Source: a virus
Length of the DNA stretch: 64,000 bases
UHGV virus genome: UHGV-0167591
Direction: 5' to 3' (one strand)
This document shows, in pieces, positions 26,997 to 36,051 of the stretch (position 1 is its first letter; every line of letters begins with the position of its first letter). The translations under genes and the position numbers were made by a program. The notes under the pieces were generated by a model. That model saw only the letters and a program-made list of their open reading frames with translations, searched no databases and was not told the DNA's origin.

Positions 26997-27014
26997 AAAT
27001 TTATTAGAGCAAAT
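26997..27014. promoter_or_regulatory. C1 operator upstream of kilA-repL (Op53-like)
   Basis: aaatttattagagcaaat: 16 of 17 match to the reverse complement of ATTGCTCTAATAAATTT. Confidence 0.6.
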
Positions 27015-27566: not shown

Positions 27567-28613
27567 TTAAGACAAGGACGCCACTGGTTTTAACAAACCA
27601 GCATCAAGTAGCTTGCGAGTTAACCACTGCTGGCCTTTACCCGTTAATTGGGGCGTCAGCCGTATCTGGTAGCCATTTTCATCATCCAGCACCACTTCTT
27701 TCACCGTGAAATACCCGGCGTTGATGTACTGTTGGCGCGGTACGTTTTTGCGCGCTCCAAAAGCCATGAGAATGCCATTCTGGCGCAACCATGAGAAAAG
27801 GGCGTTTTGCTTAAGTCCAACGACCTTTGCAAAGTTCCCGATCAGGATTCCATTGGCCACTGATACCCGGTCGGCAAAATCGACTTTAGGGGCTGCGGCC
27901 ACCAGCTGTTGTTCCAACTGCATTTTCTGTTCTGCTAACTCGGCAGCCAGGCGTAGGGCTTCTGGTAATGTCTGGGGGATCGATGGGGTAGGGGAGTTTG
28001 CCTGCTGTAATTCTTCCAGTTTGTCGATCAGCGAACGGCGGACCGCTTTCGATTCGCGCGCGGCGACTCGCAGGGCTTGTTTGTAGGTCATGGTTATGAC
28101 AACCATAGGCGTACCGCCACCTGGCGGCACGGTTGCACTTTTTGTGTAACCGTCCTCACCTTCTAATTCGTCGAGTATTTTTTCGATGAATTTGTTGTTC
28201 CGAACCTCTGGTTCCCCACATAACTTACGCGCTTCATTGACCATCTTTAACAGTGTCAGGCTGTCGATTGTGTCTCCGGTGGTGGGGATGACATTCACGG
28301 CTGGTGCTGGCGTTGCTGAAGCAACAGGTGCTGGTTTTTCAACATTTAAATTATTACCGGTCATTCTATGTGCCTCCTTTCTCATTTCTGCTGCCACTGT
28401 TGCGTAACGTAGACGTCCTTGTTCAATCAAATAATCCCTGATCTCGGCTATCAGTAGCCTGTTGATCACAGCCTTATCTGTTCGGGTATAAAAACGTCTG
28501 GTTATCATGAAATAGTTAGCAATTGCGCCGGGGATCTCCCGTGTCGGCATACAGGTAGTATGCAAGGCGATCGCTTCGGCTATTTCATTACGGGTGACGA
28601 GAGGTGTTTTCAT
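27567..28613 (-). CDS. ant: antirepressor Ant
   Basis: 348 aa; C-terminal Ant/KilA-type domain (QTLPEALRLAAELAEQKMQLEQQLVAAAPKVDFADRV); start overlaps the icd stop. Confidence 0.8.
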   Translation of the reverse strand: MKTPLVTRNEIAEAIALHTTCMPTREIPGAIANYFMITRRFYTRTDKAVINRLLIAEIRDYLIEQGRLRYATVAAEMRKEAHRMTGNNLNVEKPAPVASATPAPAVNVIPTTGDTIDSLTLLKMVNEARKLCGEPEVRNNKFIEKILDELEGEDGYTKSATVPPGGGTPMVVITMTYKQALRVAARESKAVRRSLIDKLEELQQANSPTPSIPQTLPEALRLAAELAEQKMQLEQQLVAAAPKVDFADRVSVANGILIGNFAKVVGLKQNALFSWLRQNGILMAFGARKNVPRQQYINAGYFTVKEVVLDDENGYQIRLTPQLTGKGQQWLTRKLLDAGLLKPVASLS

Positions 28614-28869: not shown

Positions 28870-28965
28870 CGCTGCTAAACAGGTGGCAGGACGTGACGGG
28901 GTTAGCAGACTGGCGTTAGTGAAACCAGCAGGCCGAAGCCTCCCCATCACGCCCCACCATAATTT
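28870..28965 (-). ncRNA. c4: c4-type antisense RNA region (approximate bounds)
   Basis: ctgctaa at 28872-28878 and 29041-29047 with complementary ttagcag at 28902-28908, the arrangement expected for c4 and its target sites. Confidence 0.4.
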
Positions 28966-29145
28966 GGGCGTAACGCGGTTTTACGGACACAAAAATACCG
29001 CAATATCGGATATCTGCGGTTGTCCGCACTAACATTCAGGCTGCTAAACCCGGTCGCAGAATTTGCTACGACGGCGGAACTATAAGCCTGAACGATTAAA
29101 AGGTCAATATGATGCGAAAAGATAGCATTCGCGACTTAAAAATAC

Positions 29146-29160
29146 AAATTTATTAGAGCA
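29146..29160. promoter_or_regulatory. C1 operator-like site in the immunity-region promoter
   Basis: aaatttattagagca: 15 of 17 match to the reverse-complement consensus. Confidence 0.5.
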
Positions 29161-29231
29161 TTAATTGTATAGTAAATACACAAATGGATCTAATAACCTC
29201 TTTTTTTTAAAGGCGAAAATATGTACCCTAA

Positions 29232-29906
29232 ATGGGTTGTAAGGCAGGTGAGGTTATAATGAGAAAACTATTATTACCGTTATTATTTATGGCTGGGACT
29301 GTTAATGCAGCATCAAGTGTAAAGGAGATTTGTACCGATTATACGAAATACCTTGGGCACGTTTACGGCTTTGCTGTCAGTCAAGACGAATCCATGCGCA
29401 AGAAGTTACTGTCAGATATGAAACGTCTTAAACTTTCTGAAGCGATGGTGCAGCAAGAACTATATAAAGTCGCAACCAACGAAAATGCTAAATATCAATA
29501 TTCTCGCCTATTAAATCCCGACGCAAACGAGATCAATCGAAGCACTTTCGATTATATGGTAAAGGCATGCGAAACCGCTCCTGATTTTGCTATCCCTAGC
29601 TGGGGTGTGCTGGTGGCGAGCAATGCCGTTAATAAAGAAGATGTTGGAAGAAATGGCATTGACTCAATCAGAAATGCCCCAGGAATGCGCCATCAAAGCG
29701 TGCAGAGTACGCTTGAAGAGCGGGCCAGGGGGCCGGGTACAAACTCCCCAATGGGAAACCTCTCACCAGAGGAATTGCAAGAGTATAACCAACGGATGGA
29801 GCAGTATGAGAAAGCGGCACGCGAACAAATGGAACAACAAAAGAACGGCTCACTTAATACCTTCCAGCAAGGTTTAAAGGCGCTTAATTTACCATATGAA
29901 TGGTGA
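29232..29906 (+). CDS. secreted superinfection-exclusion-type protein (P1 Sim-like)
   Basis: Signal peptide MRKLLLPLLFMAGTVNAASS; internal segment IRNAPGMRHQSVQSTLEERARGPGT shared with Sit. Confidence 0.5.
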   Translation: MGCKAGEVIMRKLLLPLLFMAGTVNAASSVKEICTDYTKYLGHVYGFAVSQDESMRKKLLSDMKRLKLSEAMVQQELYKVATNENAKYQYSRLLNPDANEINRSTFDYMVKACETAPDFAIPSWGVLVASNAVNKEDVGRNGIDSIRNAPGMRHQSVQSTLEERARGPGTNSPMGNLSPEELQEYNQRMEQYEKAAREQMEQQKNGSLNTFQQGLKALNLPYEW

Positions 29907-29957
29907 ATATATGGTGGTTAACTAATTAAAATATTAATATCCAAAGGAGATAAATTA

Positions 29958-30434
29958 ATGCACATCAAACGATTTTTTCTAATTCTTGCTTTGCTTACTC
30001 CTTTTTCGTCAATGGCAAATGTAAGCAAATGGTCAACCAGCGAGACTCATGGTGTTCGTTCTTATGCTGTTTCCAGCAAAGATAATTATACGCTTACATT
30101 TGAGTGCGATGTTGGATTTAATAATACGGATCCCAATCAAGTAGGAACACGACTACTCACTCTCATGAAAACAGAACCTGGCGGTGAGTCATTTGATGCT
30201 AAAAAAGAACAAATAACGCTGAAAGTTGGTGATGATGAATATCCTATCAGTTCTATCGGTTCCTCTGTGGGTGATAGTTACTGGTATGGTTTCTGGTCAG
30301 ATACCCCTGATATGGAAGTTAAAACATTCGATGCATACGTAGACGGAAAAAAAATCGCAACATTTACGCTACGTAAGGCCGCAGAGCTTTTCAACGCGGC
30401 ACCTAAAGATGGCTGCCTGAAGCGCGCAAAATGA
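29958..30434 (+). CDS. secreted protein of unknown function
   Basis: Signal peptide MHIKRFFLILALLTPFSSMA; about 38 percent G+C by eye. Confidence 0.45.
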   Translation: MHIKRFFLILALLTPFSSMANVSKWSTSETHGVRSYAVSSKDNYTLTFECDVGFNNTDPNQVGTRLLTLMKTEPGGESFDAKKEQITLKVGDDEYPISSIGSSVGDSYWYGFWSDTPDMEVKTFDAYVDGKKIATFTLRKAAELFNAAPKDGCLKRAK

Positions 30435-30436
30435 CC

Positions 30437-30461
30437 TGTCACAAATGACTACTCGTAGAAT
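30437..30461 (+). promoter_or_regulatory. late-promoter-like box
   Basis: tgtcacaaatgactactcgtagaat. Confidence 0.3.
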
Positions 30462-30468
30462 CGGTTAA

Positions 30469-31059
<591 letters not shown>

Positions 31060-32658: not shown

Positions 32659-35600
32659 ATGGAAAGAAAAAACGCCAACATTGACGATGTGATAAGGACG
32701 GTTGAAACCGCCAGCGCAAAAGAGCTGGAAGAGCTTGCAGGTATTCGGGAAGCTGTTGAAGATTTGAAAGGGGGGCGAGTTGCAACTGTTGATCCTGTCT
32801 CTCGCAGTGTGTCGGCATTAAATCGCACAATCGAAAATTCCCAGTCAGACTTTGTGGCCAAAGCGCCATCAGTGGACCCTATTGTTGAGGCAATGAAACG
32901 GCTTAATTTAGGGGACGTTCCTCGTGTAGTTCAGGAGGATGTTGCTCTACAGGAACCGCAGGCCAAATCAACTACGCGAAAGGGTAAAAAACGACGCAGG
33001 AAGGCTATAACAGAAGATGTAAAGGCGCAACGGACCGAAGCAGCCGAACACGCCCGCGAAATGTTCGGTCAAAAAGACGGTACGCAAAAAAGCCAAAACC
33101 AACGCGATGCGCGTGGTCGTTTTATTGGAAAGTCAGGGAGTAAGGCCGCAGCGGAAGATGCCCGTGCTGAACGCGCTGAAAAGGCCAGGCGCAAAGAGGA
33201 TGATGAGCGTCTAAATGCTGAATCAGGTTTATTAAAAAAACTGTCAAAAGTAGCTGAAGGTATAGGTAACCCTTCAGAGACTCGTGCCGTCGATGCTTTA
33301 GGTTATGCCGTTGCTGGCCCATTGTGGGCAGCGGGAAAAGAGCTTGGCGGGATATCAAAAGAAGTTGGCGGATCGCTTAATGGTGCCAGAAAGTCTATTG
33401 CCGATGTGATTCGTGGCAATGACGATAACAGCCGTAAAAAAGGTTTTTTTAGGCGTAAATCGCAAAGTAGTGCCGATGTCGTTCAGGTTAACACCCAAAA
33501 ACGGACGGTTCAGGAACTTCAGGATCAGACCAGCGAAATTAAAGAGGGCAATGACAAGATTCTCAGCGCCCTTGAGCAGATAGCCAAAAACACCGGGAAA
33601 AAGAAGGGCGGCTTGCTGTCCAAATTATTTAGCTTGTTAGGGAAGGGGGCCGGAGGCGTCGCGTCGTTATTAATGGGGCGTGGCATGCTGAAAAAAGCGG
33701 GAGCACTCGCTTTTGGCGCTCTGGGGGCAAAGAGACTCGTAGGAATGCTACGCGGTGGGGGCAAGAAGACTCTCGCCCATGAAGGCGGAGACTTGGCTGC
33801 CCGGGCAGCTGGTAAACTGGGGTTAAAGGCAGTTGGTAAAGGGGCGTTACGCGCAATTCCCCTAGTCGGCACAGTGGCTGGAGGTATTTATGATGCGGTA
33901 ACCGGTTGGAATGATACAGAAGCGCAACGTCGAGCGTTTGGGCTTAAATCAGGACAAGATCCATCATTCCAGCAAAAAGCCGCTTATACGTTAGCCAATG
34001 TTCTCGATATGGGGGGACTGGTATCTGGTATTAGCAGTGCTATTGGTGATGTTCTCAAATCACTTGGATTTGAGGATATCGGCAATATGTTGCAATCATT
34101 TTCGACGGAAAGTATTGCCCAGGCCATTGATAGCGGGGTTACCAACTTAGAAACATATATTTCTAACCTTGGCGACACCATTTCTACCAAGTTCGATGAT
34201 TACACAGCAAAGATTGGTGATGCTGTTTCAGCATGGTTTAGCGATACATCTAATAAGTTGCTTGAAAAGCTGGATGCCATAAAAGACTTCTTTACTGTCG
34301 ATAACCTGAAACAGGTTTTCAGTGATGCAATTGATAGTGCAATTGACTTCATTAAGAACCCAGGGAAACACATTAAAGAGGCGGCTGGTAATATTTGGGA
34401 TGGGGTTAAAAATTTACCCGGTAAAGCATTAGATGCAGCGGTTGATGCCGTTAAAAATACCCCTGCGGCAATGATTGTATCAAAAATACCCAATCCGATC
34501 GGCGAGGCTAATGCAAAAGAAATCACTCCAGAGTTAAAAGCTCCGGTTAATAGCCACCAGGAGACATCTGATTCTAAAACTGAATCCGATGCTAAACAGA
34601 CTAATATTGCTACCCGCGTGATAAATGCGGCACTGAACACGGCGAAAGATAGCAATAAAACAGTTAAAGAAACTGCCAATCAGATTATCAATGCAAATGC
34701 CGTAGAAACGGGCAATAGCGCGGTGCGGAAAATTGATTCAGCTATTGGACAAAATAGCTCGTCATCATCGTCGCGTAATACCACCGGCACCAGGAATGAC
34801 ATTCAGAAAGCTGCTGATACCTACAATAATGGCAACTTAGATGTAAAAGTCGGAAGCCTTGGCGCTGAAGGTAAGGCAAATCTCGATAAGTTAGCTCCGT
34901 ATTTTGCTGAACTAGAGAATAAATATGGTCTTCCTGAAGGCACTCTTTACGCGATTGCTGCAACTGAATCTGGTGGTAATCCGTACGCAAAATCCCAAAC
35001 TGGTGCTCTAGGGATGTTTCAGTTCACGGGCATTGCTCGTGAAGAGACTGGCTTAGCTAAAGGTGAATCGTTTGATCCTGTGAAATCGGCAGAAGCTGCG
35101 GCTCTTCTCATGAGCAAGTATCTGAAGCAAGCCAATGGGGACTTAAACGAGGCCATCACTGCATATAACGCTGGGTTTGGCACTATTAATAAGTGGAAAA
35201 AAGGCACCGGTGACTTATCGAGGGAAAACCGCGAGTATGCGATCAAGGTCAATACGCATCGTGCTCGCTATTTAGGTGGTGAAATCTATACACCTGGGGC
35301 AGGAGCACAGGGTGGGGCGCAATATGGAGTGAGGGGACCACTGCCTGATAACGCCGTTATCGATCAGTCTACTGGCCTGGCGTTTACCCCTGGTGATAGC
35401 CCGTTTGAGAAAGGCGGTTTGGTAGACAAAATCGGCAATGCTGTTGGCGTTAACGATCTGGTCAACAAATTTATGAATGGCCGGGGGATGCGTCGAGAGG
35501 TCGTCCAGGGAACGCTCGAAGAACGCGCACGAGGAAAGGGAACCGCAACGGCAGCTGGCAATGTGTATGTCGATACGCCTATGCCAGTTGAAGAGGCGCG

Positions 35601-36051
35601 TCCGGTTGCCAACAACTCAAGTTACTTTGACCAGATCGGCGCACAAATGGGGATTGATGGACTATTCGATAAACTCCGCAACGCGCCGGGGATGCGGAAA
35701 AGTAATGCGCCTGAACCAGCCTCCACGTCCCAGGTGACGACAGCCGCCAACGATTTGCAGCAACCAACCGGTCGTATGCAGATAGACGGGCAGGTTATTA
35801 GTGACCTTGGCGGTTCTGGTGCCAAGCCGACAATGCAGTTGGCTGATAATACCGTTTCACTTGATGGTGAAACGAAGCGGCTGTTTGCGCAGATGACCTC
35901 ATTGCTTGCCAGGATTGAAGAGCACACCAAAGACTCGGCGAAAGGCCAGGGAACTGTCGTAAAGGTCAGCACGCCTCAGCCGGGCGTTATGCGCACGGTA
36001 CCACTGTCAATTGATGATCCGTTGATGAATGACTACGCGAGAGTTGATTGA
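32659..36051 (+). CDS. sit: tape-measure-like internal protein with lytic transglycosylase domain (P1 Sit-like)
   Basis: 1130 aa; SLT-type motif ESGGNPYAKSQTGALGMFQF; long Gly/Ala/Lys-rich low-complexity stretches. Confidence 0.8.
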   Translation: MERKNANIDDVIRTVETASAKELEELAGIREAVEDLKGGRVATVDPVSRSVSALNRTIENSQSDFVAKAPSVDPIVEAMKRLNLGDVPRVVQEDVALQEPQAKSTTRKGKKRRRKAITEDVKAQRTEAAEHAREMFGQKDGTQKSQNQRDARGRFIGKSGSKAAAEDARAERAEKARRKEDDERLNAESGLLKKLSKVAEGIGNPSETRAVDALGYAVAGPLWAAGKELGGISKEVGGSLNGARKSIADVIRGNDDNSRKKGFFRRKSQSSADVVQVNTQKRTVQELQDQTSEIKEGNDKILSALEQIAKNTGKKKGGLLSKLFSLLGKGAGGVASLLMGRGMLKKAGALAFGALGAKRLVGMLRGGGKKTLAHEGGDLAARAAGKLGLKAVGKGALRAIPLVGTVAGGIYDAVTGWNDTEAQRRAFGLKSGQDPSFQQKAAYTLANVLDMGGLVSGISSAIGDVLKSLGFEDIGNMLQSFSTESIAQAIDSGVTNLETYISNLGDTISTKFDDYTAKIGDAVSAWFSDTSNKLLEKLDAIKDFFTVDNLKQVFSDAIDSAIDFIKNPGKHIKEAAGNIWDGVKNLPGKALDAAVDAVKNTPAAMIVSKIPNPIGEANAKEITPELKAPVNSHQETSDSKTESDAKQTNIATRVINAALNTAKDSNKTVKETANQIINANAVETGNSAVRKIDSAIGQNSSSSSSRNTTGTRNDIQKAADTYNNGNLDVKVGSLGAEGKANLDKLAPYFAELENKYGLPEGTLYAIAATESGGNPYAKSQTGALGMFQFTGIAREETGLAKGESFDPVKSAEAAALLMSKYLKQANGDLNEAITAYNAGFGTINKWKKGTGDLSRENREYAIKVNTHRARYLGGEIYTPGAGAQGGAQYGVRGPLPDNAVIDQSTGLAFTPGDSPFEKGGLVDKIGNAVGVNDLVNKFMNGRGMRREVVQGTLEERARGKGTATAAGNVYVDTPMPVEEARPVANNSSYFDQIGAQMGIDGLFDKLRNAPGMRKSNAPEPASTSQVTTAANDLQQPTGRMQIDGQVISDLGGSGAKPTMQLADNTVSLDGETKRLFAQMTSLLARIEEHTKDSAKGQGTVVKVSTPQPGVMRTVPLSIDDPLMNDYARVD

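What the first reader, a model, noticed from the sequence alone, without database searches (positions are those of the whole stretch)
29232..29906. Secreted Sim-like protein carries a copy of a motif from the ejected Sit protein
The periplasmic protein (signal peptide MRKLLLPLLFMAGTVNAASS) contains IRNAPGMRHQSVQSTLEERARGPGT. Sit contains NGRGMRREVVQGTLEERARGKGT (about 35476-35550) and LRNAPGMRKSNAP (about 35671-35710). A superinfection-exclusion protein that copies a segment of the injected transglycosylase protein suggests exclusion by molecular mimicry, for example competition for a host envelope partner that Sit needs during DNA entry.
Basis: seen in the sequence. Interest (0 to 1): 0.55.

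Follow-up and report, generated by a model that had tools for sequence, protein, structure and literature searches.

The report
Secreted prophage protein copies tape-measure motif
A secreted protein encoded in the superimmunity locus of this P1-like phage-plasmid really does carry a conserved copy of a short peptide motif from the phage's own injected tail tape-measure protein Sit, which gives a testable (but untested) way for a resident phage to block entry of related phages.

Summary
ORF 29259-29906 (215 aa, signal peptide) shares a 48-55 residue segment with Sit (32659-36051): BLASTP E 2e-8, shuffle P about 1e-6, reciprocal PHROG profile hits. There is no DNA-level similarity, so the peptide is conserved by selection and is not a recent copy. 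A profile of the motif found it only in these two protein families among 1.84 billion representative proteins.

The label "Sim-like" needs correcting. The ORF is unrelated to SimC, the P1 exclusion protein. It is the full-length form of SimA, and P1's 52-aa SimA is its truncated remnant. It sits in the variable sim locus, followed by a second secreted protein.

The core N-x-x-G-M-R-x-Q is nearly invariant across the family, down to 38% identity. Its variable residues tend to match those of the Sit in the same genome (permutation p 0.005-0.05). Sit's second motif copy is a local diversity hot spot. In both proteins the motif lies in a region modelled with low confidence.

Best reading (confidence about 0.45) is a periplasmic anti-injection factor that acts through the shared motif. 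Exclusion by this protein has never been tested and no partner is known. It would be a new variant of known superinfection-exclusion proteins that target the tape-measure protein.

The parts
29146..29162 (-). C1 repressor operator (equivalent of P1 Oc4/Op51), between the leftward c4-icd-ant operon and the rightward SimA-like gene
   Evidence: 17-mer AATGCTCTAATAAATTT has 1 mismatch to the C1 operator consensus; 7 such sites in the window against 0.17 expected by chance. The P1 annotation places Oc4 and a predicted PsimA at the homologous position.
29259..29906 (+). SimA-like gene (215 aa; the ORF also opens at ATG 29232): full-length member of the family whose truncated remnant is P1 SimA
   Evidence: ORF list and sequence. 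phrog_3933 hit E 7e-136. P1 SimA (52 aa) matches its N-terminal 45 aa, and DNA homology to P1 breaks down near 29405. 28 protein clusters in E. coli, Salmonella and Klebsiella P1-like elements.
29259..29309 (+). Predicted Sec signal peptide MRKLLLPLLFMAGTVNA, with cleavage after VNA and no lipobox
   Evidence: Read from the sequence. The hydropathy maximum is at residues 5-15. The N-A-[AS]-S site is conserved in all homologues. Prediction only.
29310..29633 (+). Conserved all-helical N-terminal domain (residues 18-125) with two invariant cysteines (C25, C104)
29619..29762 (+). Sit-like segment of the SimA-like protein (residues 121-168); the core N-A-P-G-M-R-H-Q is at 29673-29696
   Evidence: BLASTP alignment, shuffle test, coordinates. 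N139, G142, R144 and Q146 are invariant or nearly so across the family. Low pLDDT of 46-57, so probably flexible.
29958..30434 (+). Second secreted protein of the locus (158 aa; phrog_3429; counterparts in related loci carry the precomputed Pfam label PF27224 YfjT)
   Evidence: Same position in L076, L078, L080 and L165. No similarity to SimB, SimC or Sit.
32659..36051 (+). sit: tail tape-measure protein with a lytic transglycosylase domain (1130 aa)
   Evidence: 95% identical to P1 Sit. Pfam SLT E 1.9e-26 at residues 748-856, window 34900-35226. Named as the tape-measure protein and found essential in P1 (PMC10695390; PMC12810830).
35434..35565 (+). Sit motif 1 (residues 926-969: NAVGVNDLVNKFMNGRGMRREVVQGTLEERARGKGTATAAGNV)
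   Evidence: Highly conserved among close Sit variants (pi 0.016-0.034). Present in all Sit lineages examined.
35635..35703 (+). Sit motif 2 (residues 993-1015: IGAQMGIDGLFDKLRNAPGMRKS). It duplicates the proximal half of the motif and lies in a 68-aa insertion specific to P1-type Sit
   Evidence: It is the only diversity peak in the C-terminal module (pi 0.144 against 0.00-0.04). Alleles are N[AS]PGMRK and NARGMRSN.

Best explanation
The ORF encodes a soluble periplasmic protein of the SimA family. It has a folded helical domain followed by a flexible tail, and the tail displays a copy of a linear motif from Sit, the phage's own tape-measure/transglycosylase protein. In a cell carrying the phage-plasmid, I propose that this protein interferes with DNA entry of superinfecting P1-like phages. 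When the incoming tail contracts, the C-terminal part of Sit enters the periplasm. The SimA-like motif then occupies the site where Sit's own motif must dock, and so blocks assembly or function of the Sit conduit. Because motif variants tend to match between SimA and the Sit of the same genome, I think the docking site is more likely on a phage-borne component than on a host protein. That component could be another Sit copy or segment, or another ejected tail-tip protein.

Shown here: the motif is shared, specific, under purifying selection, and lies in a region modelled with low confidence. The locus is the sim hot spot. Inferred: periplasmic location, expression in the lysogen, exclusion activity, competition as the mode of action, and the identity of the partner.
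For: - The similarity is significant.
- Synonymous sites are saturated: 58% nucleotide identity, and only 5 of 18 identical residues use the same codon. The peptide is therefore maintained by selection in both genes.
- A motif profile searched against 1.84 billion representative proteins hits only SimA-family and Sit-family proteins (9 hits).
- N-x-x-G-M-R-x-Q is nearly invariant in a family diverged to 38-50% identity. In the most distant clade the motif and tail are almost invariant while the N-domain varies.
- That distant SimA and its Sit lie on one 94-kb contig, 16 kb apart. Both carry NAPGMRHQ..GSMA[DE]RA.
- Same-genome pairs are more similar than cross-genome pairs (permutation p 0.005-0.05).
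- In genomes whose Sit has two motif copies, SimA N[AS]PGMR goes with Sit motif 2 N[AS]PGMRK in 32 of 35 cases, against 5 of 11 in genomes with only the simA remnant (Fisher p 0.003).
- Sit motif 2 is the only diversity peak in an otherwise near-invariant C-terminal module.
- The gene replaces simB-simC at the known variable sim locus next to the C1 operator (PMC9603915).
- The signal peptide and invariant Cys pair fit the periplasm.
- The motif sits in low-pLDDT segments in both models, as expected for a linear binding motif.
- Precedent exists for exclusion proteins that bind the tape-measure protein or ejection proteins: T4 Imm and P22 SieA.
- Closely related D6-like prophages were reported to differ mainly near simB and in sit (PMC6799933).
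Against: - There is no functional evidence that any full-length SimA-family protein excludes phage. In P1 the phenotype is assigned to SimC, which is unrelated, and P1's own simA is a remnant.
- The covariation signal is modest. It is not corrected for shared ancestry or for multiple tests, and some pairs do not match (L044, L010, L027, L031).
- Part of the family keeps only the proximal half of the motif and has a different cysteine-rich C-terminus.
- No partner or docking site was identified, and the structure models give no confident contact.
- Expression in the lysogen is not shown. Only a weak predicted promoter lies next to a C1 operator.
- No match to known defence-system models.
Confidence: 0.45

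Rival explanations
1. The protein is an inhibitor of the incoming transglycosylase, like T4 Sp, which blocks the gp5 lysozyme. The SimA-like protein would bind the SLT domain of Sit in the periplasm and stop local peptidoglycan digestion. In this view the shared motif is a segment that normally packs against or regulates the SLT domain in Sit.
For: - In Sit the motif lies about 70 residues downstream of the SLT domain.
- The 215-aa SimA form is always found with SLT type A (23/23), and the 163-aa form mostly with SLT type B (10/12).
- T4 Sp is cited as precedent in PMC11436027.
Against: - Sit variants with a swapped, different SLT module keep an identical motif module. The motif therefore belongs to the C-terminal module, not to the enzyme (P0029).
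- The SLT-type association may simply reflect linkage, since the genes are 3-6 kb apart.
- Nothing shows a contact between the motif and the SLT domain.
Confidence: 0.15
2. The motif is a shared envelope-interaction element and has no exclusion role. Both proteins would use it in the periplasm to bind the same host component, such as peptidoglycan, a chaperone like FkpA, or a protease. The SimA-like protein would have another job, such as lysogenic conversion, envelope modification, or helping the resident phage.
For: - Core residues are conserved across E. coli, Salmonella and Klebsiella lineages, which would fit a conserved host ligand.
- A tape-measure protein that needs a periplasmic chaperone and an inner-membrane protein is known for HK97. 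This is from my own knowledge of Cumby et al. 2015 and was not read here.
- No defence-model hit.
Against: - The motif is absent from every other protein family in 1.84 billion representatives. That is odd for a general ligand-binding element.
- Variation matched by lineage and by allele within one host species is not expected for a fixed host ligand.
- The gene sits where P1 keeps its exclusion genes.
- Even so, binding the same host ligand would still produce competition with incoming Sit.
Confidence: 0.2
3. The motif is a relic of an old recombination between sit and the sim locus and has no present function. The similarity would be historical accident or chance.
For: The sim locus is a recombination hot spot with mosaic cassettes.
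Against: - Chance is excluded.
- A functionless relic would have decayed. Instead the core is nearly invariant at 38-50% overall identity with saturated synonymous sites.
- The 163-aa variant ends just after the motif and so retains it.
Confidence: 0.03

Closest known systems
P1 SimA (simABC superimmunity operon of phage P1)
   Same: Homologous. P1 SimA (52 aa) matches the N-terminal 45 residues of the window protein, including the signal peptide. It has the same position and orientation next to the C1 operator Oc4.
   Different: P1 SimA is a truncated remnant lacking the helical domain and the Sit-like motif. The window protein is the full-length form (215 aa). In P1 the rest of the locus is simB-simC; here it is a YfjT-like gene.
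P1 SimC (the Sim superinfection-exclusion protein)
   Same: Same locus. It is a secreted, processed protein and is non-essential for lytic growth (P1 annotation; PMC10695390). It is reported to block infection after adsorption (my own knowledge of Kliem and Dreiseikelmann 1989 and Maillou and Dreiseikelmann 1990, not read here).
   Different: No sequence similarity to the window protein, and no Sit-like motif.
T4 Imm
   Same: A phage-encoded envelope protein that stops genome entry of superinfecting phage by directly binding the tape-measure protein (bioRxiv 10.64898/2026.03.06.709160).
   Different: Imm is an integral inner-membrane protein that binds a helical-bundle domain of the tape-measure protein, and it is not reported to share sequence with its target. 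The SimA-like protein is predicted to be soluble and carries a copy of a tape-measure protein segment.
P22 SieA, and HK97 gp15 / TP-J34 Ltp
   Same: Prophage-expressed proteins that block DNA injection of related phages. Escape maps to C-terminal regions of ejection proteins (P22 gp16/gp20; PMC10883804) or to the tape-measure protein (Ltp and HK97 gp15; own knowledge, with PMC3952083 listed).
   Different: They are membrane proteins or lipoproteins with no reported sequence copy of their target. None is related in sequence to the SimA family (no PADLOC, Pfam or NCBIfam hit).
T4 Sp
   Same: An envelope-located exclusion protein that neutralises the peptidoglycan-degrading activity carried by the incoming tail (PMC11436027).
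   Different: It targets the enzyme. Here the shared segment lies outside the SLT domain and stays the same when the SLT module is swapped.

Membership tests
SimA family (phrog_3933; 'simA domain protein' in NCBI names) | Sequence homology over the whole protein to family members, including P1 SimA | tested here: met
   phrog_3933 E 7e-136 over residues 1-215. 28 clusters at E<=1e-45. P1 SimA equals the N-terminal 45 aa.
SimA family (phrog_3933; 'simA domain protein' in NCBI names) | Location in the sim locus, between the c4/C1 operator and pmgC, transcribed away from c4 | tested here: met
   Window ORF map, P1 and Ro157c2YLVW annotations, operator at 29146-29162. Same synteny in L076, L078, L080, L164 and L165. 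The most distant clade (L085) has it elsewhere.
P1 SimC-type exclusion protein | Sequence homology to SimC | tested here: not met
   BLASTP finds no alignment better than E 28.
P1 SimC-type exclusion protein | Confers exclusion of P1 after adsorption when expressed | not testable with these tools
   Needs plating and DNA-entry assays.
Superinfection-exclusion proteins that target the tape-measure or ejection proteins (T4 Imm, P22 SieA, HK97 gp15, Ltp) | Located in the cell envelope | tested here: met
   Prediction only: a Sec-type signal peptide with a VNA|A site conserved in all homologues, an invariant Cys pair, and no other hydrophobic segment.
Superinfection-exclusion proteins that target the tape-measure or ejection proteins (T4 Imm, P22 SieA, HK97 gp15, Ltp) | Specific genetic or physical link to the tape-measure/ejection protein of the excluded phage | tested here: inconclusive
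   The motif is shared only with Sit. Motif similarity is higher within a genome than between genomes (p 0.005-0.05). There is an allele association (p 0.003, not corrected for phylogeny). No binding or escape data.
Superinfection-exclusion proteins that target the tape-measure or ejection proteins (T4 Imm, P22 SieA, HK97 gp15, Ltp) | Expressed from the prophage and blocks DNA entry | not testable with these tools
   Only a weak annotated or predicted promoter next to a C1 operator. No expression or phenotype data.
Sit / tape-measure protein with SLT domain (phrog_2533) | Homology to P1 Sit and presence of an SLT lytic transglycosylase domain (applies to ORF 32659-36051) | tested here: met
   95% identity to P1 Sit. 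PF01464 E 1.9e-26. phrog_2533 match over the full length.
PTP-like phytase (Pfam PF14566) | Score above the Pfam gathering threshold, plus the catalytic C-x5-R signature | tested here: not met
   27.4 bits against a cutoff of 27, covering only profile positions 46-132. The two cysteines (C25, C104) are not followed by R at +6 (read from the sequence). Treated as spurious.

The most novel reading that the evidence does not exclude
P1-like phage-plasmids defend their host cell with a periplasmic decoy: a small secreted protein that displays a copy of a linear motif from the phage's own tape-measure protein. The motif would evolve in step with the resident Sit, and superinfecting phages would escape by changing their Sit motif. 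This would be the first exclusion mechanism based on mimicry of a tape-measure protein segment. It would also mark Sit residues 926-1015 as the docking element needed for genome delivery by a contractile-tailed phage.
Probability: 0.3. Interest if true: 0.8.

Novelty: new variant of a known kind. Interest (0 to 1): 0.55.

Why it matters
How the P1 tape-measure protein Sit works after ejection is unknown. It is essential (PMC10695390) but was not resolved in the virion structure (PMC12810830). The function of simA has also been open since the P1 genome was annotated.

A motif private to Sit and to a secreted protein of the superimmunity locus links the two and gives precise targets. These are about 8 core residues in the SimA-like protein and two sites in Sit, with natural alleles available for swapping.

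If the link is functional, it would show a new way for exclusion proteins to recognise their target, namely by carrying a piece of it. It would also explain why the sim locus and sit vary together among otherwise near-identical P1-like and D6-like plasmids, which are common carriers of resistance genes in Enterobacteriaceae.

If the protein has no exclusion activity, the shared motif still marks a functional element of Sit in the periplasm.

Tried and rejected
- **Homology to SimC, SimB:** none. P1 SimC has no Sit-like motif either.
- **Recent DNA duplication or gene conversion between the ORF and sit:** rejected. blastn finds nothing, and the codon-aligned identity is 58%.
- **Known families:** the borderline Pfam PTPlike_phytase hit is judged spurious. 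PADLOC gave nothing, and NCBIfam nothing meaningful. A PDB sequence profile search gave only a 0.017 hit to an unrelated giant protein.
- **Other similarities inside the window:** phmmer of the ORF, its N-domain, its C-terminal tail and the YfjT-like neighbour against all window ORFs found only Sit.
- **Wider distribution of the N-domain without the motif:** a profile search found nothing outside P1-like elements.
- **Structure of the Sit C-terminal module:** the model is too poor (pLDDT 47) to show a docking site.
- **Longer contigs for the distant SimA P0035:** the direct look-up gave only 1-kb contigs and the metagenome scan found nothing. The viral-contig scans succeeded.
- **The P1 genome paper (Lobocka et al. 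2004):** not held, so what it says about simA could not be checked.
- **Excess of amino-acid-changing variation in the motif among close SimA variants:** not significant (8 changing to 12 silent, against 8 to 32 in the N-domain; p 0.13).

Full report
**1. Where we are**

The window is a P1-like phage-plasmid. Region 28900-30500 is 96.9% identical to Escherichia phage vB_EcoM-Ro157c2YLVW. It matches P1 itself only at its two ends.

The ORF in the finding lies between two conserved blocks:
- the leftward c4-icd-ant immunity operon (ant at 27567-28613);
- the rightward tail genes pmgC (30493), tub, pmgB and sit (32659-36051).

A C1 operator with one mismatch lies at 29146-29162, at the position of P1's Oc4. 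In P1 this interval holds simA-simB-simC. It is one of the eight variable regions of P1-like plasmids (PMC9603915).

**2.

The ORF opens at ATG 29232. The likely start is ATG 29259, which is preceded by AGGTGAGG and is shared with homologues from other genera. The 215-aa product begins MRKLLLPLLFMAGTVNA|ASS. This looks like a Sec signal peptide with no lipobox, and there is no other hydrophobic segment.

The similarity to Sit is significant by several measures:
- BLASTP against Sit aligns residues 121-168 with Sit 926-969 (22/48 identical, E 2e-8). Residues 129-144 also align with Sit 997-1013 (E 0.014).
- The Smith-Waterman score of 96 exceeds all 2000 simple shuffles and all 2000 block shuffles. 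The highest shuffle scores were 75 and 71, and the Gumbel P is 1-2e-6.
- Family profiles agree in both directions. The ORF hits the Sit family phrog_2533 at positions 929-972 (E 4.5e-7). Sit hits the ORF's family phrog_3933 (E 9.8e-6).
- Nothing else in the window resembles the ORF.

**3. What the protein is**

It is not a SimC homologue. Translating P1 simA gives MSYKAGEVIMRKLLLPLLFMAGTVNAASSVKEICTDYTKYLGHVYAFAINDY. This is the first 45 residues of the window protein followed by a divergent stop. DNA homology between the window and P1 runs through the start of the gene and breaks down near 29405. P1 SimA is therefore a truncated remnant of a longer protein, and the window carries the full-length form.

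Distribution of the family:
- It comprises 28 clusters at 90% identity, in E. coli, Salmonella and Klebsiella. The window's own cluster has 906 member sequences.
- In PLSDB, 267 plasmids match. Of these, 84 match over at least 80% of the length. About 150 carry only the 48-residue remnant.
- A profile of the N-terminal domain finds no relatives outside P1-like elements.
- There is no match in PADLOC, NCBIfam or the PDB. The borderline Pfam PTP-like phytase hit (27.4 bits against a cutoff of 27) lacks the catalytic signature, and I regard it as spurious.

AlphaFold2 models a confident all-helical domain, with pLDDT about 86-96 over residues 21-110. The Sit-like segment follows at low confidence (pLDDT 46-57) with two short helices, and then a helix at 170-197. 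The domain has no significant structural neighbour.

**4. Anatomy of the shared motif**

Across the family the invariant or near-invariant positions in the tail are N139, G142, R144 and Q146, giving N-x-x-G-M-R-x-Q. The distal half (V-x-G-[TS]-L-x-x-R-A-x-G-x-G-T) is present in about half of the subfamilies. The others continue with an unrelated cysteine-rich C-terminus. A common 163-aa variant ends just after the motif and is followed by a different gene cassette.

In members other than the window's, the ungapped similarity to Sit extends upstream to about 55 residues, including D-[KE]-F before the asparagine.

Every Sit lineage examined has motif 1. P1-type Sit has in addition a 68-residue insertion carrying motif 2, which duplicates the proximal half (IG..G[VI][ND].L..K...N..GMR).

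A Sit variant with a different SLT module keeps an identical motif module (P0029). The motif therefore belongs to Sit's C-terminal module and not to the enzyme domain. The C-terminal module is modelled with low confidence as a monomer (pLDDT 47). This fits a linear motif in both proteins.

**5. Selection and specificity**

Selection: at the DNA level the two motif copies are 58% identical, and only 5 of 18 identical residues use the same codon. blastn finds nothing. The copy is therefore old and is kept at the protein level. In the most distant SimA clade (38-40% identical in the N-domain), four sequences differ at many N-domain positions. Their motif and tail are almost invariant.

Specificity: a 55-column profile of the motif was searched against 1.84 billion representative proteins. 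It gave 9 hits, all from the SimA family, the Sit family, or fragments of them. The motif is private to these two protein families of P1-like phages.

**6. Do the two copies track each other?**

I paired SimA and Sit from the same genome in 11 lineages. In the most distant lineage the two genes are 16 kb apart on one 94-kb contig. Both read NAPGMRHQ..GSMA[DE]RA.G.GT.

- Permuting the pairings gives p = 0.013 for the 27-residue motif in 7 lineages.
- For the 12-residue core and for the two variable residues of N-x-x-G-M-R in 11 lineages, p ranges from 0.005 to 0.05.
- Among genomes with a two-motif Sit, SimA N[AS]PGMR is found with Sit motif 2 N[AS]PGMRK in 32 of 35. The single SimA with NARGMR is found with Sit NARGMRSN.
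- Genomes with only the simA remnant are split 5 to 6 (Fisher p 0.003).

These tests are not corrected for shared ancestry or for multiple testing, and there are clear mismatches (L044, L010, L027, L031). I therefore call the signal suggestive.

Independently, among 74 closely related Sit sequences the C-terminal module is almost invariant (pi 0.00-0.04 per 20-residue block). The exception is the block holding motif 2 (pi 0.144). A published comparison of D6-like prophages also noted that near-identical elements differ mainly around simB and in sit (PMC6799933).

**7. Mechanism**

Sit is the P1 tape-measure protein. It is essential (PMC10695390), lies in the tail lumen and baseplate centre, and is unresolved in the virion structure (PMC12810830). 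By analogy with other tape-measure proteins, its C-terminal part should be the first to enter the periplasm on contraction. This step is inferred.

A soluble periplasmic protein displaying the same linear motif on a flexible tail is well placed to compete for whatever the Sit motif docks to. The lineage-matched variation favours a phage-borne docking site, either Sit itself or another ejected tail-tip protein, over a fixed host protein. This too is inference.

Direct binding of an exclusion protein to a tape-measure protein has precedent in T4 Imm. Exclusion through the C-terminal regions of ejection proteins has precedent in P22 SieA. In neither paper as I read it is the exclusion protein said to share sequence with its target.

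I put 0.45 on motif-mediated interference with Sit. The rivals are:
- an Sp-like inhibitor of the SLT domain (0.15). Its main support is the association of SimA length variants with SLT module type, which may be linkage;
- a shared envelope-binding element with no exclusion role (0.2);
- a functionless relic (0.03).

**8. Verdict**

The name needs correction: SimA-like, not SimC-like. The mimicry idea is plausible and testable but unproven, because no experiment links any full-length SimA protein to exclusion.

I found no mention of the SimA-Sit similarity, or of P1 SimA being a remnant, in the papers I could search. The P1 genome paper was not available.

I rate it a new variant of a known kind, namely envelope exclusion proteins aimed at the tape-measure protein. 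Interest is 0.55.

Noticed in passing
L001:7326-7484 (P1 simA) versus window 29232-29405: P1's annotated 52-aa SimA is the N-terminal remnant (signal peptide plus about 25 residues) of a 160-250 aa protein family. Homology to the window ends near 29405, where P1 has a stop codon and simB begins. About 150 PLSDB plasmids carry only this remnant.
   Followed up: yes
window 29958-30434 (+): A second secreted protein (158 aa, phrog_3429) follows the SimA-like gene. Its counterparts in Salmonella and Klebsiella P1-like elements carry the precomputed Pfam label YfjT (PF27224). It has no similarity to SimB, SimC or Sit, and its function is unknown.
   Followed up: partly
window 35635-35838 (Sit residues about 970-1037): P1-type Sit carries a 68-residue insertion relative to D6/Salmonella-type Sit. 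The insertion contains a duplicate of the proximal half of the motif (motif 2). This block is the only variable spot in the C-terminal 230 residues among close relatives.
   Followed up: yes
window 34700-35350 (Sit SLT region); protein P0029: Sit exists with two different SLT modules (ATESGGNP..GMFQFT and SAESSAGQR..FQI) swapped into an otherwise near-identical protein. The 215-aa SimA form was found only with the first type (23/23), and the 163-aa form mostly with the second (10/12). Whether this is linkage or functional coupling is not resolved.
   Followed up: partly
L031:8748-12258: In elements with the 163-aa SimA variant, the locus also holds a TnpB-like ORF (402 aa) just upstream. Downstream are a different YfjT-like protein (168 aa) and a 394-aa protein with a hydrophobic segment. 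This shows cassette exchange right after the motif.
   Followed up: no
window 8254-8281, 11829-11845, 26997-27013, 29146-29162, 55507-55523: Matches to the 17-bp C1 repressor operator with 0-1 mismatch (6 sites, including an overlapping inverted pair at 8254-8281). About 0.2 matches at up to 3 mismatches are expected by chance. The site at 29146 lies between c4 and the SimA-like gene.
   Followed up: partly
protein P0008; plasmid hits H41-H43 (Escherichia albertii): Some copies of the SimA-like gene are frameshifted just before or within the motif. P0008 reads the +1 frame from residue about 138. The E. albertii plasmid matches come in 2-3 pieces. This suggests occasional inactivation.
   Followed up: no
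L084 (metagenome scaffold) and L085/L086 (IMGVR_UViG_2871745582_000001): A distant P1-like lineage, whose Sit is about 41% identical to P1 Sit, has no immunity/sim block between bplB and pmgC. Its SimA-like gene lies 16 kb away from sit, next to methyltransferase- and helicase-like genes. It still keeps the shared motif.
   Followed up: partly
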